From a virus, in IMG/VR virus record IMGVR_UViG_3300034685_000230, positions 1-64,000 of that record: DNA of 64,000 nucleotides, one strand, 5' to 3'. The notes beneath the pieces are model-generated. The model ran no database searches and had not been told where the DNA came from. It saw nothing but the letters and a program-made list of their open reading frames with translations. Shown here one piece after another: positions 1-62,832 of the stretch. The translations under genes were made by a program, and so were the position numbers. The number at the start of each line of letters is the position of its first letter. The stretch's first letter is position 1.

Positions 1-126
1 AGCATCCTATGGTGACTATATATTCCCATATAACGTAGCCCGATAGGGTTAATACCCCCTGGCTGAGGCTAATCAACTGAGCTTGTTAATCACAAGCTCC
101 ACCCTCTATAGGGTGGGGTAGTTGAC
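1..126 (-). ncRNA. IscB-type omegaRNA / HEARO RNA 5' portion (IS200/IS605-family element running off the left edge)
   Basis: Minus strand reads GTCAACTACCCCACCCTATAGAGGGTGGAGCTTGTGATTAACAAGCTCAGTTGATTAGCCTCAG...CTACGTT...ATAGTCACCATAGGATGCT. This matches the typical HEARO/IscB omegaRNA start and contains hairpins CCACCCT/AGGGTGG and GAGCTTG/CAAGCTC. Any associated ORF would lie outside the window. Confidence 0.75.
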
Positions 127-26975: not shown

Positions 26976-29900
26976 ATGGACAGAAAAGACTACACGGCTC
27001 TCCTGTCAGAGAGAGTCTGGCCCAGGGTTGAGAGACAGCTTTTGGGTGGAATCGCTGACAGGGGGCTTCAGAGAAACTTGAAAACTGTTCTCGCTAACAC
27101 GAGAAACGCGCTTTTGGCTGACACGTCAATGCAGAACATGGTATACCTCAGTGTGGGGTCATTTTAGCGAGAGCTAAAATAGCAAATCGGGTGAATTGCT
27201 GGGACTCTTTAGAGCCTCTAGTGCTACAGCGTAGTCGGTAACGACAAGCGCGAAAGCTCTAAAAAACTTAGAGGATTAGGGAATCAGCAGCCGAGCAGCC
27301 AGTACACTGGTTGAAGGTCCAGAGACTACCGGAGAGATGCTCTTAGTTCTTAAGAGCGAGTTCTCTTAATAACCGGCTAGAGCGCCCGACCCTTAGTTAT
27401 AAAGCTAAGGTGAAGATATAGTCCATCCCACAGCGAAAGCTGCGGACAAGATGCCCGAAAATTGTACTACCGTTAGTTAGACGTCTCAACGTAGGGACCG
27501 CTGTAGGGTAACCTACAGTTGCAAATTCGGTGAATTGCTGGGAGCCTTTAGAGCCCTCGGTGCTACAGCGTAGCTGGCAACGGCAGGCGCGAACGCTCTA
27601 AAAAACCGTAGGGATTAGGTAATCAGCAGCCAAGCTCCCGAAAGCGCAAGATAGTAGGGAGAAGGTTCAGAGACTAGAGGTTGAGCCAGCGCAGGCAATA
27701 ACACCTCCTCGAGCGCCGAATAACTAAAGCAGTATAGCTTTAGTTAATGATATAGTCCACTCTAGGGTGAAAGCCTTAGGTAGAGTGCTTTCCAAAACTG
27801 ATTGCGAATCAGATTATCTCGGTTCAGCCGCTCAACGGACCAACGGGTTATTAATCTAGCTCGTTTAAAATCGGGTGAATTGCTGGGAGTTCCTAAAGCT
27901 CTTAGTACTACAGAGTAGCCGGAAACGGCAAGCTCGAAAGTTTGAAAAACTAAGAGATGCAACAATGGATAACCAGCAGCCAAGCTCCTGAAGGTACATT
28001 AAGAGTATGGAGAAGGTTCAGAGACTAGAGGTTGAGCTAGTACAAGCAATAACACCTCCTAGAGCGCCCGACAAGTATTGAGTACCTTGACAATTAAATA
28101 ATACTATAGATTATATAATAATTAATATAAAAAATATTAATATATTATGGGACAGGTGCTGATCACACTTGATAAATTTAACCCTCATTTATCTTACCAT
28201 AATATATTCAATAAAAAGAGGGTTAATTATGATTCAATGTCCAATATGTAAAAAATATTTTAAGCATATTAATAACATGCATTTAAAAAAACATAATTTA
28301 ACTACTGAACAATTTAAATCATTATATCCTAATTATAATACATGTTCTAAAGAATTTAGTGAAAAACGATCGGCTGCTAATAAAATACAAATGTTAAAAA
28401 TTCATAAAAAAAATCCAAAAGAAAGATATGTTAATGTTGGTATTGGTCGAAAAAAAGCTTGGGATAATTGTTCAGAAGAAAGACGAAAAGAGATAGGGTT
28501 AAAAGCTACTGAATGTTGGAGAAAATATGATTTAAATGAAGAAAATAAACGAAAAAAATATAAAAAAGTTTCTAAATCTCTTAAAAAATATTATAAAAAT
28601 TTAGATCCAAAAGAAAAAGAAAAAATATTGAAAAATAGTTTATTTAAAATTAGAAAACATGGTGGAGCTAAAATAGAAACTAATATTAACGGAAAAATAA
28701 TTAAATTTCGATCAATACCAGAAATTTGGATAGCAGAGTTTTTAGAACAAAGTGGTTTTAGTTGGGAATATGAAACTTTAAAAATTGATTATTTAGACAA
28801 AAATAATAATATGCATATATATATTCCTGATTTTTATATAAAAGATTATAATTTAGTTTTAGAATTTAAAGGTAAAAATTTTCTTGAAGAAGATATTGAA
28901 ATATATAAAAAATACTATACAGAAAAAGCCGGATTTAATTATATTTTATTAATGTATCAAGAAAAATATTTATTATTAAAAGAATTAAAAAAGATTTTTA
29001 ATCTATAGTATTATTTAATTATTAGGTACTCAATACTTGAAGATATAGTCCGTTCCGTAGTGAAAGCTACGGAGTAAAACGTGGATTCGGTTCCTTGACG
29101 CATTTGTTGAACACATTAATCCAGCTACTGGCAACGTAAACATCTACCCCTGGTCTCAGGGTGACAGCACGTACTCTACACCGCAGAATGATTTAACGGT
29201 TGAAATTTCAGCTGATGGTACTGACACAAACTATACTGGAGTACTAAAAGACAGCGATAATAATATACTGGTACCGTCGGAGGGAACGCTCTTTGTGGAG
29301 ATTGAAAGTTCCTCCGGTACGTGGACGAAGATAGCCGAGGCTGACAGGAGTGGAGTGCTTCACTCTCTGAGTTCCGCCTATAAAGTTATAGGTGTCGTTG
29401 ACCCTAAAACACAAGAGTTTGTCGTTAACGTTACAGACTCAGCCGGCACCGTAGTCGGAAAAGCGCTTCGCTTTGCCTTTAAGGAAGACATTCAGAAGAA
29501 CATCCCGTTCGGCGACGGTAAGACCTACAACACGATGCGGTTTGAGATCACCAAGATCGCCGTCGAGGCTAAGACCCGTAAGCTGGGTGCCACGTACAGC
29601 TTCGAGCTCATGGAAGACTACAAGAACGAGTTCGGTGAGAACTTCGAGGACAAGATGGTCGACTACCTAACCACGACTATTCTGACGGAGGTCGACAGTG
29701 AGGTAATCGACACGCTGTTCAGTAAGGCTACCGTAAGCGGTTCTTGGGACGCCACGATGCCGATGACGTGGACTCGCGGTATCAACCAGTGGTACGAGAC
29801 GGTGCTGCCGAAGATAAACAAGCTGAGCAACTACATCTACCAGGCAACCCACGTCTCCGGAGCAACGTTCCTGGTCTGCAGCCCCGTTACGGCTACCATC

Positions 29901-32995: not shown

Positions 32996-33226
32996 ATGGT
33001 TAGCGTTAAGTTAGACGACGCGCTGTATCTAAAACCTAACCTTACCTTAAAGTTAGACGGTAAGTTTATAATCATATTTAATGACGGAGTAGAGGTTAAG
33101 AGGGAAGAGTACGCCGACGCGACTGCAGCGACGAATAAGTTTAACGGCATTATTACGGCTATAAATACTGCGGTGTCACCGACTACATCAAACATGTTGT
33201 TTTTGGACTTAGACACTCTGCTATAA
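32996..33226 (+). CDS. hypothetical protein
   Basis: AAGGGG RBS; follows the candidate late motif. Confidence 0.5.
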   Translation: MVSVKLDDALYLKPNLTLKLDGKFIIIFNDGVEVKREEYADATAATNKFNGIITAINTAVSPTTSNMLFLDLDTLL

Positions 33227-33271
33227 ATTTCATGATAGACTTAATATATTACAAAAAGGTGGTATAAAGAC

Positions 33272-34183
33272 ATGTTTCAACCAGTTAACTTAGCGATAGA
33301 CAGTAGCGGTAGACTCTTTGTCACCGACTTCGGTGACAACACGGTCAAGGTGTTTGACAATCCAAGTGACCTAGAGACACCCAGTATCGTGCTGACAGGG
33401 TTTAACTTCAACGAGAAGACCTTCTCTTTTCCAGACGTTGTCATAAAACCTAAAGTAACAGAAGAGATAGAAGGAGAGCCAGTAGTTACACAGCCTGAAA
33501 CTCTGTTTGTTTCAGACCCGTTTAACCACGCTGTCAAGGTGTACAGCATCGGTGAAGACGGTCTAGAGTTGGTAGCTACCCTGGGTGGCTTCGGTTCGGG
33601 AGACGCACAGTTTAGCCAGCCGGGAGGGCTAGCCCTCAACGAGGACGGAACGGAGCTACATGTTGTCGACACGATGAACCACAGGATCTCGGTGTGGTCA
33701 GCCGAAACGCCCTTTGCATACATTGCAAGCTACGGTGGCCCGGGTCACGGTGACGATAGCGGGTTGTACTACCCGACGGACATACTACACGCTGGTGCCG
33801 GGGTTATGTACGTTGCCGACTGCGGGCACAACAGGGTAGTCAGCTTTAAGAACGACGGGACCGCGTCGATTCCCTACGTAGTCAAGAAGTTAGACGAGTA
33901 CGTTGGGCACAGCTTGAGCCCAAGCGGAGTCTTGACTCTAACTACAAACACGTTTCCGGTAATCAGCTTGGTAGCTCACGGGACTAGTTTTTACCTGTCA
34001 GACCTATACGTTTCAAACATAGTTGAATTCGACAGTACTTGGGCACAAGACGGTACAGTTTTTCTTTCATACGGTGACGGTACTGAAAAAGTTAAGTTTC
34101 CGAAGGGTATGCACGTAAGCGACGACACGCTGTATGTAGCGGATACGGCTTCAAGCGAAGTCGAAGCAATCTCACTAGTTTAG
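33272..34183 (+). CDS. NHL-repeat beta-propeller protein
   Basis: PVNLAIDSSGRLFVTDFGDNTVKVF, FSQPGGLAL..VVDTMNHRISVW, YVADCGHNRV. Confidence 0.8.
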   Translation: MFQPVNLAIDSSGRLFVTDFGDNTVKVFDNPSDLETPSIVLTGFNFNEKTFSFPDVVIKPKVTEEIEGEPVVTQPETLFVSDPFNHAVKVYSIGEDGLELVATLGGFGSGDAQFSQPGGLALNEDGTELHVVDTMNHRISVWSAETPFAYIASYGGPGHGDDSGLYYPTDILHAGAGVMYVADCGHNRVVSFKNDGTASIPYVVKKLDEYVGHSLSPSGVLTLTTNTFPVISLVAHGTSFYLSDLYVSNIVEFDSTWAQDGTVFLSYGDGTEKVKFPKGMHVSDDTLYVADTASSEVEAISLV

Positions 34184-34202
34184 CTTATTTTTATAAATAC
34201 AT

Positions 34203-34236
34203 AAGGGGAGAGGATTAAATCCTCTCCTTTTTTTTT
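34203..34236 (+). terminator. intrinsic terminator
   Basis: AAGGGGAGAGGAT-TAA-ATCCTCTCC followed by T9. Confidence 0.8.
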
Positions 34237-34249
34237 ATGCTAACATACC

Positions 34250-34633
34250 TCAGTGGTAGTAGATCGGTGTGTTCGGGTAACTTACGATAACCCTATATAG
34301 TTTAATCTTCCCACCGTCTGGAAGCTCAGAAGCTTCTTCCGAAAGCTCTCCGCCGCAGTACTGCACGACTACAGCCCTGTCTCCCACACTTAACTCTACA
34401 GTCTCACTACTACAGACTACACCGATGATACTAGCCAACCCCCTGTGCCTAACGTAGCTCTTGTATCCCGACCGAACGTACATGTCCATAACGCTCTTAA
34501 CGTTACCGCGGTCTAAGTTAAAGTAGTCCGTTATGTCGGCAACGTATACGTCGCAGGGAAAAGCGCTGTCCCTCAGCATGTCTAAGCTAAGCGTGTCGAG
34601 AATGTACTCTTCACTCATAAAAACCCCCCTCAC
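34250..34633 (-). CDS. divergent AcrIII-1 / DUF1874 (STIV B116, YddF)-like protein
   Basis: YILDTLSLDML (cf. YL.NAFS.NML), SYVRH (cf. SAVGH), L..GD..VVVQY.GG.L.E.A..LP.G..I. ATG near 34618 is the likely start. Confidence 0.6.
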   Translation of the reverse strand: MRGVFMSEEYILDTLSLDMLRDSAFPCDVYVADITDYFNLDRGNVKSVMDMYVRSGYKSYVRHRGLASIIGVVCSSETVELSVGDRAVVVQYCGGELSEEASELPDGGKIKLYRVIVSYPNTPIYYH

Positions 34634-35094
34634 TGGATAATCTTAACCCTCCACCCCTTAGTCTCGGCATCGTACCACCAGAGTCTAACACTTCTTAAGT
34701 AGACTCGAAGCAAGCTGTAGCATATGCTACACGGGTGTGACGACAAAAGCCTGCGCGTTCCCCTTAAGACAACTACGTCTGTGACACCGTCGGTTAACTC
34801 TTTTCTTAGCAGTTTGATCACGAGGTCTGCTTCGGCGTGAATTGACATGCACTTTAGATCGTGGTAAGTTTCCTTAAGAAAAGGATGTGTCTTCAGCTTG
34901 TTTTCACCGTACTCTACGAGTTTTGAACCGTCGAGAGCTACAGCTACGCAGCGAAGGCTTGAGTCAAAGCGTCGCGTGTTCTTTAAGTTGTGTTCTTTAG
35001 ACATTGTGGCAATCTCGGGTAAGATAGAAGGGAGAGCTCCCTTAAATCTTTTCCCTACTTTAACGTAGCTTGAGTTTAACCCAACACTTTTCAT
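34630..35094 (-). CDS. cytidine/dCMP deaminase-fold zinc protein
   Basis: HAE ... PCSIC zinc motif. Confidence 0.75.
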   Translation of the reverse strand: MKSVGLNSSYVKVGKRFKGALPSILPEIATMSKEHNLKNTRRFDSSLRCVAVALDGSKLVEYGENKLKTHPFLKETYHDLKCMSIHAEADLVIKLLRKELTDGVTDVVVLRGTRRLLSSHPCSICYSLLRVYLRSVRLWWYDAETKGWRVKIIQ

Positions 35095-35136
35095 ACCTTA
35101 CTCCATCTCACTTTAACTCTATAAGTTAATTAAATT

Positions 35137-35319
35137 GTGAACTACCCCCACCTATAGAGGTGGTGGCTTCGTGGTCAATGCTCCCATCGGAGCAAGATTA
35201 CCCACGCTCAAAGGGCTGTTCCTTCCCCAGCTTTACCAATTATACAGTATTAGGAAAGAATTGTCAAGCGACATTCATCACCCACTTATAGAAGTGGGCG
35301 ACTTCTGTCGTTAATTAGG
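35137..35319 (-). mobile_element. non-autonomous IS200/IS605 mini-element: left-end hairpin + sigma70 promoter + TnpB-type omegaRNA/right end
   Basis: Minus strand: TTTAA | left-end hairpin (CCCACTT/AAGTGGG, 35269-35310); TTGACA-17-TATAAT (35267-35239); structured RNA; right-end hairpin CCACCTCTATAGGTGG-GGGTAGTTCAC. No ORF. Confidence 0.75.
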
Positions 35320-35364
35320 TTAAAATACTACGGTATTTTCTACGCCACTGCCTGTTAAATAAAT

Positions 35365-35388
35365 AAGGGGAGTTTGTAGCTCCCCTTT
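35365..35388. terminator. hairpin terminator
   Basis: AAGGGGAG-TTTGTAG-CTCCCCTT. Confidence 0.55.
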
Positions 35389-35437
35389 GAGTTCATCCAC
35401 TAACAGATGCAACTCCCTCCCTCGCAAAAACTGTTTC

Positions 35438-35950
35438 TTACCCCTGCAGCTGCTCTTGGCAGAACAGCTTTATCATAACAAAGGAGTGTATGTAAGACCT
35501 AACTAGCTCCCCAATCTCTTCTAAGTTTGACAAAGACAATGGTAGCTTAAAACTAATTTCCCTACCGTCGGCTTCTGTAGAGTTAAACCAAAATGTTGCA
35601 AACTTAGGCTTTGATATATCTTTATCATCGGTAAAGTACGACAGAGTAACTTTCTTATTGTACTTTTCGCTGTTTCTATACAGCTCTACAATGCTAGCAA
35701 CATTCTTAGACTTGATAAACTCTAGAATATTTAAGCAGTCTTGAAACGTTAGCGAGACAACTATTTGCGAAGCGTAGTCAAATATCTTAGTTCCCTTAGG
35801 TATCTGCCCGGGTTTAATACCGTCGGGTAGCTTACCAGGTGTGTACGACGGTGCCGCTACTAACGCTAAGTTACCAGCCTTGTTAATCTTAAACTGCAGC
35901 TTCGCGTACTTTGGAAACACCATTTCATGAACATCAACACTGTACTTCAA
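35438..35950 (-). CDS. hypothetical protein (possible Whirly/PC4-like ssDNA-binding fold)
   Basis: GGAGG RBS; KIFDYASQIVVSLTFQDC and FKLPLSLSNLEEIG patterns. The fold guess is weak. Confidence 0.45.
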   Translation of the reverse strand: MKYSVDVHEMVFPKYAKLQFKINKAGNLALVAAPSYTPGKLPDGIKPGQIPKGTKIFDYASQIVVSLTFQDCLNILEFIKSKNVASIVELYRNSEKYNKKVTLSYFTDDKDISKPKFATFWFNSTEADGREISFKLPLSLSNLEEIGELVRSYIHSFVMIKLFCQEQLQG

Positions 35951-36037
35951 ACCTTACTACCTCCCTTACGTTTTACGGAGTACTCTCCGGTGTTTTACTG
36001 CTATAGTTATAACTTTTAAAGCTTTAAAAACCTTACG

Positions 36038-37102
36038 TCACACTACATTATCGTATATCAGAATGTTCTTGTTCAAGCGACTCTTGTACACAGCTAGTAC
36101 TCTTAAACCACGGTAACCGAGCTTCTTAGAGTTTCGGGAAGCGTCGTTTCTTATTAGAAAAGCTACGTCGTCGTGGTCGTCTACATCGTCTAGACTGGTG
36201 ATCACTTTTGTTACAGGTATCTTAAACCAACCCTCATCGTCAACGCTAACGGTAGTGTCTAAGTCAAAACTCTTGACGACAACCGCACCGTTCGGTAGTA
36301 TGTCACTACCGAACACAACGTCTCTCTTCTCCTCTTCGGTGGGTAAAAAAGCAACGTTCGGTTTTAAACGGTACACACCCTTGTCAGTCAGCTCGAGTTC
36401 TACTACACCCTTCTCTACAAGCTCGTCTACAACTCTTCTAGCCTTAGCCCCCATGTAGTCATCGGCGGACTCCCAAGTTTCAGCATTGTCCTTCTTAAGC
36501 GATACAGGGTAGTCTAAGTTTCCCTGCAGTACTAAGTCCGCCTTTCGCCTGTTCTTTGTATCCGTTCCGGTCAGAACGCAGTTTTTAACGCCAACACAGC
36601 TAAACGTTTTATTCTTACCGACAAACCTTACGTTAACGGGCCCGTTAGCACACAGCTCGTTTATCTTATCCGCTAGAATCTTTTCGTTTAACACCCCGGC
36701 GCTGTGTTCTTTGTTCGGTTTGGCGACAAGCCTTATGTTGTTGTCTAGCTTAACGTAGCCTACCGACGAGACACCGCTCGGGGTGTCAATGTACACGCCG
36801 TCTAACTCGTCAGCTAGAAACTTTAGGAGCTTAACCCTGTTTTCATCGGTCTTTATATGAATTAACCTACTGTTCTTAACTACTACGCTCCCAACGTTTA
36901 AAGCTTTTAGTTTCTCCGCTACTTCAAGCACTTCTGGGTTAAAACTCTTCTCAGCTAGCAGTAAGTTTTTCACCCTTTTAAACAACTCGTCTTTGTCTAA
37001 CATGATGGGGGTGTGTGGTACCCTAGCTATAAAGCTACCACTCTTTTTCTTTTTCTTCTTACCCTTACTAATGTCGTACTTTCGCTCTACCGGCTTAGCC
37101 AT
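36038..37102 (-). CDS. hypothetical protein, possible PD-(D/E)XK nuclease
   Basis: KADLVL...YPVSLKK; start likely at MAKPVERKY after GGAGAGG. Confidence 0.45.
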   Translation of the reverse strand: MAKPVERKYDISKGKKKKKKSGSFIARVPHTPIMLDKDELFKRVKNLLLAEKSFNPEVLEVAEKLKALNVGSVVVKNSRLIHIKTDENRVKLLKFLADELDGVYIDTPSGVSSVGYVKLDNNIRLVAKPNKEHSAGVLNEKILADKINELCANGPVNVRFVGKNKTFSCVGVKNCVLTGTDTKNRRKADLVLQGNLDYPVSLKKDNAETWESADDYMGAKARRVVDELVEKGVVELELTDKGVYRLKPNVAFLPTEEEKRDVVFGSDILPNGAVVVKSFDLDTTVSVDDEGWFKIPVTKVITSLDDVDDHDDVAFLIRNDASRNSKKLGYRGLRVLAVYKSRLNKNILIYDNVV

Positions 37103-38006
37103 GAGACGCCTCTCCAGGGTTAACGTGCTGGGTAATTCTCTGGAGCATCTCGTCACTCAGTTCAAACTTACCGTTGGTCTTCTCCAACTTAAACGCCGTG
37201 TCTCTAAACTTAGAGCGAAACGTACTTTCGTCGGTATTCTTACTAAACACAACCCAGAGCTCGTCTAGAGTGTTTAGTAGCCCCTGCCGGACAGCCCTGG
37301 GGATAGTGTTTAGGATCTTTCTGTGCACGTGTTCTAGATAGTCTTCGGGAACTACGCGGTCCCTAGTCTTGTTACGTATCTTAGCCAAGTCAATACTCGT
37401 GACTACCCAAACTAGGGCAACCCTGTAGCCTAAGTCTTTAAACAAGCGTGTGTTTAAAACTAGCTCTTCAACGTTGTTACCGGTCGTGTCTATCACGAAG
37501 TTCTGAAGTTTCTTTCCCGAACTTCTTAGAAAACTGTCTAGCGCTTTGCTAAACAGATGTCTTTTCCAGCTAGTATATTTATGCAGCTCCTCCATGTCTC
37601 GAGGGTTCTTTGGGTCCGGCAGCCTACCGCCGTACGGTTCTAGAATCTGCTCCTTAACTCTCGGACTAGTCTCCGGGCTGTTGACTAGCTTTTCTAGCAG
37701 CTTAACGTACAGCATCTTTATGTTGTCGCTGTCTAACACCTTGGCGTCGATTAAAAGTTGGTTCCTAATAGTGTACGACTTGCCGGACCCCGGTCCACCG
37801 CACGTAAACACGGCCCAACCGCTTCTAGGGTACGGCTGGTTTCCAAACTTTACGGCTGAGTCTTCGACTACACCGACTAAGTTATACCTAGTGTTTTGCA
37901 GCGTCGCTTTAATTAAATCATGTAGTTTGTCTGGCACTGGTACGTACCTCCTACGTAGTGAAAAACTCTTCATACAAAAATCTATGACTATACGGTAGTT
38001 CGTCAA
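37095..38006 (-). CDS. P-loop kinase (zeta-toxin/AAA_33-like)
   Basis: GGPGSGKS, VIDTTG, RNKTRDRVVP. Confidence 0.7.
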   Translation of the reverse strand: MTNYRIVIDFCMKSFSLRRRYVPVPDKLHDLIKATLQNTRYNLVGVVEDSAVKFGNQPYPRSGWAVFTCGGPGSGKSYTIRNQLLIDAKVLDSDNIKMLYVKLLEKLVNSPETSPRVKEQILEPYGGRLPDPKNPRDMEELHKYTSWKRHLFSKALDSFLRSSGKKLQNFVIDTTGNNVEELVLNTRLFKDLGYRVALVWVVTSIDLAKIRNKTRDRVVPEDYLEHVHRKILNTIPRAVRQGLLNTLDELWVVFSKNTDESTFRSKFRDTAFKLEKTNGKFELSDEMLQRITQHVNPGEASHG

Positions 38007-62597: not shown

Positions 62598-62832
62598 TGT
62601 AATTAGCTACCGCTTTGTAGAAGCTTGACTAGTTAGTTGTATTATAACTCGCTTCGGTGATGTTGTACATAGCTTTGCTTCAAAGAATAGCAACCACTGC
62701 TATGTTAGCTAAATACACTCTAACTATAGAGATACTTTTATGGTGAAAAAAACGCTGTATTTGTAACTATTTAATATATATTACTCTAGAGCAATATTAT
62801 TTTTAAAAACTACGCTAGTTATAATTATTTAT

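What the first reader, a model, noticed from the sequence alone, without database searches (positions are those of the whole stretch)
35137..35319. 183-bp self-promoted guide-RNA mini-element: IS605 ends + perfect sigma70 promoter + omegaRNA, no protein
Seen on the minus strand: TTTAA, a left-end hairpin, an exact TTGACA-N17-TATAAT, then about 95 nt of structured RNA (CGTGG/CCACG, TGCTCC/GGAGCA, CCACC/GGTGG) ending TAGTTCAC, followed by flank AATTTAATTAACTTATAGAG. Known: TnpB omegaRNAs derive from the IS605 right end and use the 3' flank as guide. Inference: this is a minimal selfish unit that expresses only a guide RNA and borrows TnpA/TnpB in trans. It could cut empty alleles (TTTAA + flank) in co-infecting phages. 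Its promoter also reads into the deaminase and AcrIII-1-like genes downstream.
Basis: partly seen in the sequence, partly recalled or inferred. Interest (0 to 1): 0.8.

Follow-up and report, generated by a model that had tools for sequence, protein, structure and literature searches.

The report
Gene-less IS605 mini-transposon carrying guide RNA
A 183-base, gene-less remnant of an IS605-type jumping gene sits in this phage genome, with the transposon's own promoter fused directly to a complete TnpB guide-RNA scaffold; this kind of element is already described, so it is a clean new example, not a new system.

Summary
Window 35137-35319 (minus strand) matches, base for base, the two ends of a 1,690-bp autonomous IS200/IS605 element (Y1 tnpA plus tnpB). 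That element occurs in another viral contig (L054) and in a Tissierellaceae MAG (L149). The window copy lacks 1,507 internal bp, deleted at a 4-nt TAAT microhomology.

The deletion puts the transposon's left-end promoter (TTGACA-N17-TATAAT, 12/12) about 4 nt upstream of the first stem of the TnpB omegaRNA scaffold. In 40 distinct relatives this RNA lies directly 3' of tnpB. Stems 1, 3 and 4 show compensatory changes across 96 distinct copies. The layout matches the 116-nt functional core of the ISDra2 omegaRNA. Similarity between copies stops exactly after GTAGTTCAC, where the guide would begin.

The 89-kb phage record has no tnpA, tnpB or iscB, so any activity needs enzymes supplied in trans. 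Not shown: transcription of this copy, TnpB loading, or an empty allele. A 90%-identical relative carries a sibling element at a site that is empty in this window, so the family has moved in this lineage.

Meers et al. 2023 already describe gene-less PATEs that encode omegaRNAs needing TnpB in trans, and this scan has met siblings on other DNA. Verdict: new member of a known kind.

The parts
35320..35324 (-). Target / transposon-adjacent motif TTTAA, immediately 5' of the left end. The alternative reading TTAAC = 35319-35323 is not excluded.
   Evidence: Nearly all of 36 distinct left-end flanks read (T/A)TTAAC. The empty site in this window for a sibling insertion reads TTTAA followed by A, not C. 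By analogy, ISGst2 has TAM TTTAT and TEM TTCAC.
35137..35319 (-). The whole non-autonomous IS200/IS605 mini-element (PATE), 183 bp, with no gene.
   Evidence: It equals the 1,690-bp IS of L054 minus 1,507 internal bp, and every remaining base is identical. Only spurious 43-47 aa ORFs lie on the opposite strand.
35281..35298 (-). Left-end subterminal hairpin (CCCAC, loop TTCTATAA, GTGGG). This is the DNA structure that TnpA recognises in this transposon family.
   Evidence: Sequence. It is conserved in all left-end copies.
35239..35267 (-). The transposon's own left-end promoter: TTGACA (35267-35262), 17-nt spacer, TATAAT (35244-35239). In the full-length IS it precedes the tnpA ribosome-binding site.
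   Evidence: 12/12 match. TTGACA/TTGATA-16/17-TATAAT is kept in left-end variants whose spacers differ. In L054 and L149 it is followed by CAGTATTA.AGGAAGG and then tnpA.
35239..35242 (-). Deletion junction: the 4-nt microhomology TAAT is shared by the -10 box and the tnpB stop-codon region.
   Evidence: Left identity runs to 35239 and right identity starts at 35242, an overlap of 4 nt, with 1,507 bp deleted.
35137..35232 (-). Predicted 96-nt omegaRNA scaffold, counted from the inferred start about 7 nt after the -10 box. Stem 1 is 35228-35225 with 35215-35212. Stem 2 is 35206-35202 with 35174-35170. Stem 3 is 35194-35189 with 35184-35179. Stem 4, the right-end hairpin, is 35163-35159 with 35152-35148. 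The candidate pseudoknot pairs GAAC (35221-35218) with GUUC (35142-35139).
   Evidence: Covariation in stems 1, 3 and 4. The layout parallels the ISDra2 omegaRNA core of stem 1 plus pseudoknot and stems 2-4. Stem 2 and the 3' strand of the pseudoknot were fixed by my search pattern, so their invariance carries no information. The start site is inferred, not measured.
35137..35141 (-). Transposon-encoded motif TTCAC: the right-end cleavage site and last bases of the element.
   Evidence: Similarity among all copies ends exactly here. ISGst2 has the same TEM.
35121..35136 (-). Predicted 16-nt guide (AATTTAATTAACTTAT). It is phage DNA flanking the right end.
   Evidence: Position only, by analogy with TnpB omegaRNAs, whose guide is the 3' flank. 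Not tested.
34630..35094 (-). Downstream 154-aa ORF, deaminase-like, co-directional with the element. No terminator lies between the element and this ORF.
   Evidence: ORF list. HAE...PCxxC motif. dCMP_cyt_deam_1 scores E = 0.028, below its cut-off. No terminator-like site between 35137 and 35094.
35365..35387 (-). Terminator-like hairpin of the upstream 170-aa gene. It would shield the element from upstream transcription.
   Evidence: It is conserved in relative L201.
62803..62807 (-). Empty target site (TTTAA followed by AAATAATATTG) for a sibling mini-element present in a 90%-identical relative (L029).

Best explanation
SHOWN. The stretch is a 183-bp non-autonomous derivative (PATE/MITE-like) of an IS200/IS605-family insertion sequence whose TnpB is close to ISDra2 TnpB. 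A single 1,507-bp internal deletion at a TAAT microhomology removed tnpA and tnpB. Both transposon ends were kept intact, and the left-end promoter now sits about 4 nt before stem 1 of the omegaRNA scaffold.

INFERRED MECHANISM.
(1) The left-end promoter starts an RNA near 35232. It consists of the complete scaffold (stem 1 with pseudoknot loop, then stems 2, 3 and 4), followed by the phage flank as guide.
(2) TnpB made by autonomous copies in the host or in co-resident elements loads this RNA. An identical copy exists in a Tissierellaceae MAG.
(3) The complex would cut any allele that reads TTTAA followed by the flank. That includes the donor joint left by TnpA excision and an uninterrupted allele in a co-infecting relative. 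Recombination with an occupied copy would then restore or spread the element.
(4) TnpA supplied in trans can excise and re-insert the element 3' of TTTAA.
(5) Because there is no terminator, the same promoter also reads into the downstream deaminase-like operon.

I put identity at about 0.93. I put the guide-RNA function of this copy at about 0.4-0.5.
For: - Both ends are 100% identical to a full IS carrying a Y1 TnpA (Pfam 5.7e-46) and a TnpB (OrfB_IS605, Cas12f-like TNB and HTH_OrfB domains).
- The same IS, with a 100% identical TnpB, lies in a Tissierellaceae MAG at a different TTTAA site.
- That TnpB matches ISDra2 TnpB structures at E = 6e-95.
- 128 right-end copies were found, 96 of them distinct. 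40 distinct copies lie directly 3' of tnpB.
- Covariation supports stems 1, 3 and 4.
- No covarying helix was found inside the tnpB coding part, so the structured scaffold lies after the stop codon and is all retained here.
- The layout matches the 116-nt functional ISDra2 core, and 5' truncation to that core keeps activity.
- Thirteen LE+RE mini-elements in viral contigs, with at least 7 different deletion junctions, all keep the whole scaffold.
- The promoter hexamers are conserved among left-end variants.
- The same phage with the element in place occurs in DNA runs of two other studies.
- A sibling element sits in a 90%-identical relative at a site that is empty here.
- In two metatranscriptomes, RNA contigs covering 35137-35229 have word depths up to 974, against 24-56 for the left end.
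- Meers et al. 2023 demonstrate the cut-and-copy retention mechanism and note PATEs with omegaRNAs.
Against: - Nothing shows that this particular copy is transcribed. The RNA contigs cannot be assigned to it, and at the copy-specific junction the listed RNA contigs branch into full-length IS sequence.
- The phage record has no tnpB, tnpA or iscB.
- No empty allele or excision joint of this insertion was found.
- The pseudoknot has no covariation support, and 11-12 variant copies break two of its pairs.
- Every other mini-element that still has the standard left end keeps 20-45 more nt on the 5' side of the scaffold than this one does, so a requirement for that segment cannot be excluded.
- With no terminator, the 3' end of the guide would depend on processing.
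- The host is unknown. The MAG contig with the identical IS is only 2.1 kb and could be mis-binned.
Confidence: 0.62

Rival explanations
1. It is the same transposon remnant, but its only present role is as a promoter and 5' leader for the phage's downstream deaminase-like operon. The guide-RNA scaffold is carried along unused.
For: The left-end promoter is the only consensus-like promoter between the upstream terminator (35387-35365) and the 154-aa ORF, and no terminator follows the scaffold. Relatives L199-L201 lack the element and have their own TTTACA-N17-TATAAT at the homologous place. The insertion is stable across three studies. The record has no TnpB.
Against: Both ends and the scaffold show zero substitutions relative to the autonomous copy, so the insertion is too recent to show selection for or against any role. 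All sibling mini-elements keep the scaffold, including those without a promoter, which points to the RNA or the transposon ends as the retained unit. Identical autonomous copies with intact TnpB circulate in the same kind of community.
Confidence: 0.25
2. It is a dead deletion relic with no function of any kind. It is neither transcribed usefully nor mobilisable, and will decay.
For: It contains no gene. No cognate enzymes are in the record. No empty allele or excision joint was seen.
Against: Both ends, the target motif, the TTCAC end, the hairpins and the promoter are all intact and identical to the autonomous element. Sibling mini-elements sit at different sites in related phages, one at a site that is empty here.
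Confidence: 0.1
3. It is a structured regulatory RNA, such as a riboswitch or small RNA of the phage, unrelated to transposons.
For: It lies in a 5' leader position. A three-way-junction-like fold is predicted. An 81.6%-identical copy in Rhodothermus phage RM378 is followed by a terminator.
Against: No Rfam family matches. In 40 distinct relatives the RNA is the sequence immediately 3' of tnpB. The downstream genes differ between copies. The left half is a transposon left end.
Confidence: 0.01

Closest known systems
PATE-like non-autonomous IS200/IS605 elements encoding omegaRNAs (Geobacillus stearothermophilus; Meers et al. 2023, PMC10055086)
   Same: Both have left and right ends with subterminal hairpins, no protein gene, and a right end that encodes a TnpB guide-RNA scaffold needing TnpB and TnpA in trans. 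The right-end motif TTCAC is the same as in ISGst2, and the target TTTAA is close to ISGst2's TTTAT.
   Different: This copy lies in a phage genome, not a bacterial chromosome. The complete left-end promoter is fused about 4 nt from the scaffold by a defined 1,507-bp deletion. I did not compare its sequence with the ISGst elements.
ISDra2 TnpB-omegaRNA system (Deinococcus radiodurans; PDB 8EXA, 8BF8, 8H1J; Nakagawa et al. 2023, PMC10097598)
   Same: The TnpB of the parent IS aligns over its full length with ISDra2 TnpB at E = 6e-95. [quoted passage not shown]
   Different: The scaffold is shorter, about 93-96 nt against 116 nt, and lies wholly after the stop codon. The TnpB is 356 aa against 408 aa, so it lacks the C-terminal tail that overlaps the RNA in ISDra2. 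The target is TTTAA, not TTGAT. The pseudoknot is not confirmed here.
Sibling mini-elements of the same IS family in other viral contigs (L011, L022, L028, L037, L058, L074, L081, L084, L098, L099, L103, L107, L094)
   Same: Same ends, same scaffold, no gene, total length 185-230 bp.
   Different: They have different deletion junctions. Most lack the consensus promoter. L011/L084/L179 keep it with about 45 nt of tnpB tail, and L099 has a junction-made TTGACT-16-TAAAAT. Of those that keep the standard left end, this copy has the shortest stretch before stem 1.

Membership tests
IS200/IS605 non-autonomous element (PATE) | Left and right ends with subterminal hairpins, homologous to the ends of an autonomous element encoding a Y1 (HUH) TnpA. 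| tested here: met
   86 nt of the left end and 106 nt of the right end are 100% identical to L054, which encodes Y1_Tnp (5.7e-46) and TnpB.
IS200/IS605 non-autonomous element (PATE) | No protein-coding gene inside the element. | tested here: met
   The element is 183 bp. Only 43-47 aa ORFs lie on the opposite strand.
IS200/IS605 non-autonomous element (PATE) | Insertion 3' of a fixed 4-5 nt target, without target-site duplication. | tested here: met
   Nearly all of 36 distinct left-end flanks read (T/A)TTAAC, and the flanks are otherwise unrelated. The TAATTAAC seen both inside the left end and in the right flank is not a duplication: the first copy is part of every copy of the element.
IS200/IS605 non-autonomous element (PATE) | Evidence of mobility, as occupied versus empty sites. 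| tested here: inconclusive
   A sibling element in L029 (90% identical phage) sits at a site that is empty in this window at 62803-62807. No empty allele of the 35.2-kb insertion itself was found.
TnpB omegaRNA (reRNA) | Encoded at the right end, at or after the 3' end of tnpB, with the guide being the DNA just outside the element. | tested here: met
   40 distinct copies lie directly 3' of a tnpB zinc-ribbon C-terminus. Similarity stops exactly after TTCAC.
TnpB omegaRNA (reRNA) | Conserved secondary structure supported by compensatory changes. | tested here: met
   Stem 1 (GC82/AU13; GC85/AU5/UA5), stem 3 (for example CG48/UA43 and CG40/AU27/GC17) and stem 4 (CG50/UA25). 0/500 shuffles reach the observed score. 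Stem 2 was invariant by construction of the search.
TnpB omegaRNA (reRNA) | Pseudoknot between the stem-1 loop and the bases just 5' of the guide, as in ISDra2. | tested here: inconclusive
   GAAC and GUUC can pair in 78-96 of 96 copies, depending on the pair, but no double changes were seen. The 3' strand was fixed by the search pattern, and 11-12 copies with a GGUUC loop break two pairs.
TnpB omegaRNA (reRNA) | The RNA is made and bound by TnpB, and directs cleavage next to the target motif. | not testable with these tools
   The only data are RNA contigs of the scaffold in two metatranscriptomes, which cannot be assigned to this copy.
TnpB omegaRNA (reRNA) | Match to a curated covariance model. 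| tested here: inconclusive
   Rfam 15 gives no match even at E = 10, and I saw no TnpB omegaRNA family among the outputs. A profile built from 95 other copies finds the site at E = 4e-34.
Sigma-70-type promoter | -35 and -10 hexamers at 16-18 nt spacing, conserved among homologues. | tested here: met
   12/12 match. The hexamers are kept in left-end variants with different spacers. Activity was not tested.

The most novel reading that the evidence does not exclude
The phage carries a stand-alone guide-RNA gene and no nuclease. On infection it programmes the host's own TnpB against the uninterrupted allele (TTTAA plus flank) of competing relatives. The 183-bp cassette would then act as a nuclease-free gene drive or superinfection weapon between co-infecting phages. 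The tRNA-carrying sibling and the HEARO fragment at the contig start would suggest that phages of this lineage collect such guide cassettes.
Probability: 0.15. Interest if true: 0.75.

Novelty: new member of a known kind. Interest (0 to 1): 0.35.

Why it matters
This is a very clean natural example of a minimal guide-RNA cassette: two transposon ends, a consensus promoter and a complete TnpB scaffold in 183 bp. Its exact parent element and its single deletion event can both be identified.

It shows that IS605-type guide RNAs circulate in phage genomes that encode no nuclease. This makes testable the idea that such RNAs use a host TnpB during infection.

It also delimits a compact natural scaffold of about 93-96 nt, lying wholly outside the tnpB reading frame, for a close relative of ISDra2 TnpB. 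The principle itself has been published, so the finding adds detail and does not change the picture.

Tried and rejected
- Rfam scan of 33000-37500 at E up to 10 gave only chance terminator-like hits. The tRNA scan of the window found none.
- A riboswitch or hammerhead-like three-way junction was considered from the two-sequence fold. It was dropped once tnpB was found upstream in relatives.
- Exact-pattern searches for an empty allele returned only unrelated chance matches. These were TTAAC plus flank in viral contigs and the 20-nt left flank in viral and metagenome contigs.
- Laid contigs of two DNA runs show no joint across the element. Two RNA runs show no cover on 34300-35097 and no listed contig across the copy-specific junction. 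Contigs cannot show absence.
- A first all-against-all covariation screen on 17 sequences was too loose to use. The stricter helix screen on 40 sequences found no helix inside tnpB.
- The target reading TTAAC was considered and judged less likely than TTTAA, but it is not excluded.
- The tRNA-omegaRNA arrangement of L029 was searched in viral contigs. Only L029 itself was found.
- The other end of the record was searched for the rest of the HEARO RNA and for IscB. Nothing was found.
- The 234-aa ORF near HEARO-like copies in L211 and L216 is not IscB. It gives only a weak PDEase_I hit.
- L054 shares nothing with this phage outside the element.

Full report
**What is there.** On the minus strand, the sequence reads as follows:
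- TTTAA at 35324-35320;
- an invariant C at 35319;
- a hairpin, CCCAC...GTGGG, at 35298-35281;
- GATGAATGTCGC;
- TTGACA (35267-35262), a 17-nt spacer, then TATAAT (35244-35239);
- about 96 nt with three obvious stems, ending GTAGTTCAC at 35137;
- an AT-rich flank, a ribosome-binding site, and the ATG of a 154-aa ORF at 35094.

The promoter is the only 12/12 match in 34000-36200. The single-sequence fold is unremarkable (z = -1.5), and Rfam finds nothing.

**How it was identified.** A search of phage records gave one hit, an 81.6%-identical copy of the RNA part only, in Rhodothermus phage RM378. That copy has four compensatory changes in the middle stem.

A degenerate pattern built on two conserved blocks found about 38 true relatives in IMG/VR. 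A longer pattern found 91 stretches in bacterial and archaeal genome contigs. These are mostly Caloramator and Tissierellia, plus Clostridium tetani, Cetobacterium, Fervidobacterium and others.

In many relatives a 356-371 aa ORF ends about 30 nt before the conserved core. Five such ORFs all carry HTH_OrfB_IS605, OrfB_IS605 and Cas12f1-like TNB domains, so they are TnpB. The L054 protein matches ISDra2 TnpB structures at E = 6e-95. The RNA is therefore the right-end guide RNA (omegaRNA) of an IS605-family element.

**Origin of the window copy.** The window's left part (TTTAA through TATAAT, 86 nt) is 100% identical to L054 5671-5756. There it precedes a 137-aa Y1 transposase (Pfam Y1_Tnp, 5.7e-46) and then tnpB.

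The right 106 nt are 100% identical to L054 7260-7365. The two identity runs overlap by the 4 nt TAAT. The window element therefore equals the 1,690-bp IS minus 1,507 bp, with no other change.

The TATAAT box is entirely left-end sequence. Its last four bases coincide with TAAT at the tnpB stop codon. The same IS, with a 100% identical TnpB, lies at a different TTTAA site in a Tissierellaceae MAG contig (L149).

**The RNA.**
- An alignment of 96 distinct copies (A4) shows compensatory changes in three stems:
  - stem 1: GC82/AU13 and GC85/AU5/UA5;
  - stem 3: UA49/GC37, CG48/UA43, UA45/AU39 and CG40/AU27/GC17;
  - stem 4: CG78/AU10, AU75/CG10 and CG50/UA25.
- Overall, 94.2% of cells are paired against 84.3% in shuffles and 30-56% when partners are slid. 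0 of 500 shuffles reach the observed covariation.
- The three blocks GAGCGTGG, CCACGAAGCC and GTAGTTCAC were required by my search patterns. The invariance of stem 2 and of the 3' tail therefore says nothing.
- Among 40 distinct tnpB-bearing copies, a helix screen found no covarying helix inside the coding region.
- Nakagawa et al. (PMC10097598) describe a functional 116-nt ISDra2 scaffold. It has stem 1, whose loop pairs with bases -5 to -3 to form a pseudoknot, then stems 2, 3 and 4. Deleting everything 5' of -116 does not reduce cleavage.
- The window RNA has the same order of parts in about 93 nt:
  - stem 1 at -92/-76;
  - a loop with GAAC (-85 to -82) that can pair with GUUC (-6 to -3);
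  - stem 2 (-70/-34);
  - stem 3 (-58/-43);
  - stem 4 (-27/-12).
- The predicted start (about -96) lies 4 nt before stem 1.
- The pseudoknot itself remains unconfirmed. There are no double changes, and 11-12 copies with a GGUUC loop break two of its pairs.

**Boundaries.**
- Thirteen LE+RE mini-elements aligned with their flanks, and 36 distinct left-end contexts, show unrelated DNA up to (T/A)TTAAC on the left and immediately after TTCAC on the right.
- ISGst2 of Geobacillus has TAM TTTAT and TEM TTCAC.
- The empty site in this window for a sibling insertion reads TTTAA followed by A.
- I therefore favour TTTAA as the target, with C as the first base of the element. TTAAC is not excluded.

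**Is it alone in the phage?** The record is an 89,471-bp virus contig that CheckV rates complete. It has one full copy of the RNA. It has no match to TnpB, OrfB_IS605, the Cas12f-like TNB domain, Y1_Tnp or the IscB RRXRR domain, and control genomes did give matches for all four Pfam-family searches.

One caveat applies. The contig begins inside another guide-RNA element. Window 1-126 (minus strand) matches the first 107 positions of Rfam HEARO, the IscB guide RNA, at E = 3.4e-9. Its homologue in L028 scores above the gathering threshold. The assembly therefore broke in a repeat, and something could be missing there.

**Mobility and population data.**
- Mini-elements of this family are common, with at least 7 different deletion junctions, and all keep the entire scaffold.
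- Relatives of this phage carry them at other places: L167, L037/L081 and L107.
- L029, 90% identical to window 62803-67007, has a sibling element at a TTTAA that is empty in this window.
- Contigs of two DNA runs from other studies hold this phage with the element in place. One 168-nt contig crosses the deletion junction without a difference.
- No empty allele of this insertion was found anywhere.
- More distant relatives (59% protein identity, L199-L201) lack the element. They have their own TTTACA-N17-TATAAT in the homologous spacer.

**Expression.** In two metatranscriptomes, contigs covering 35137-35219/35229 have word depths of 124-974 (X16) and 15-136 (X15). Contigs on the left end have depths of 24-56. 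This fits an abundant scaffold RNA in those communities. However, the contigs sum over all copies of the family, and at the copy-specific junction the listed RNA contigs branch into full-length IS sequence. Transcription of this copy is therefore not shown.

**Promoter.** TTGACA/TTGATA-16/17-TATAAT is retained in tnpA-bearing left-end variants with different spacers, and is followed by the tnpA ribosome-binding site. It is therefore the transposase promoter of the parent IS.

Most sibling mini-elements lost it. At least three other kinds have a promoter in front of the scaffold: L011/L084/L179, L099 and L178.

**Neighbours.** The 154-aa ORF has an HAE...PCxxC motif and a sub-threshold dCMP_cyt_deam_1 hit (E = 0.028). 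The 127-aa and 170-aa ORFs have no Pfam or PHROG match. No terminator lies between the scaffold and the 154-aa ORF, while a terminator-like hairpin lies upstream at 35387-35365.

**Comparison with what is known.** Meers et al. 2023 report gene-less PATE-like elements with IS605 ends. They state that such elements often encode omegaRNAs that must be acted on in trans by TnpB from other IS copies. Their work also provides the mechanism assumed here: TnpA excision leaves a donor joint of target motif plus flank, which the TnpB-omegaRNA complex cuts so that recombination restores the element.

Earlier notes of this scan describe sibling elements on other DNA, one of them followed up with the same verdict. 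The finding is a well-documented new member of a known kind.

**What is particular to this copy.**
- Its location in a phage.
- The exact reconstruction of its origin.
- The near-perfect placement of a consensus promoter in front of a complete scaffold.

Noticed in passing
window 1-126 (minus strand): The contig starts inside a HEARO RNA, the IscB-type guide RNA. Rfam RF02033 positions 1-107 of 211 match at E = 3.4e-9, cut off by the contig end. It ends in a hairpin plus GTAGTTGAC. The homologue in L028 scores 88.8 bits, above the gathering threshold. No IscB gene or rest of the RNA is found anywhere in the record.
   Followed up: partly
L029 1-385 (minus strand); empty site at window 62803-62807: A 90%-identical relative carries a sibling mini-element with a tRNA-Thr(UGU) gene as cargo. 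The tRNA has its own TGGTATAAT -10 box and lies between the tnpB tail remnant and the omegaRNA scaffold. A tRNA directly upstream of a guide RNA could supply its 5' processing. The contig ends inside the right-end hairpin. It is the only such case found in IMG/VR by exact pattern.
   Followed up: partly
L001 3001-3114 = NC_004735.1 128208-128321 (Rhodothermus phage RM378): An orphan omegaRNA scaffold with no left end and no tnpB lies directly after the sigma-factor gene and is followed by a terminator-like hairpin. The record annotates it as the 27-aa hypothetical protein Rm378p143. It is 81.6% identical to the window copy, with compensatory changes in stem 3.
   Followed up: partly
window 27165-28077: Three copies of a structured repeat about 340 nt long (families D2, D4, D8 and D9). 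Earlier notes of this scan read them as sibling group I introns in the capsid gene. I did not examine them.
   Followed up: no
window 34630-35094 (minus strand): The 154-aa ORF has a cytidine/dCMP-deaminase zinc motif (HAE...PCxxC) but only a sub-threshold Pfam hit (E = 0.028) and no PHROG match. The 127-aa ORF after it (34250-34633) has no family match at all, so the 'AcrIII-1-like' label is unsupported by these libraries.
   Followed up: partly
L199, L200, L201 (for example L201 1625-1700): Relatives at 59% protein identity lack the element in the homologous spacer and carry their own TTTACA-N17-TATAAT promoter there. In this window the transposon promoter is the only consensus-like promoter upstream of the gene.
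   Followed up: partly
L149 (Tissierellaceae MAG contig DATCJO010000125.1) 275-1969: A full autonomous copy of the parent IS, with TnpB 100% identical to the L054 protein and a scaffold 96/96 identical to the window's. It gives a candidate host lineage and a candidate source of TnpA and TnpB in trans. The contig is only 2.1 kb, so the binning is uncertain.
   Followed up: partly
L011, L084, L179, L099, L178: Other mini-elements of the family also place a promoter in front of the scaffold, through different deletion junctions. L099 has a junction-made TTGACT-16-TAAAAT. Promoter-to-guide fusions have therefore arisen several times.
   Followed up: partly
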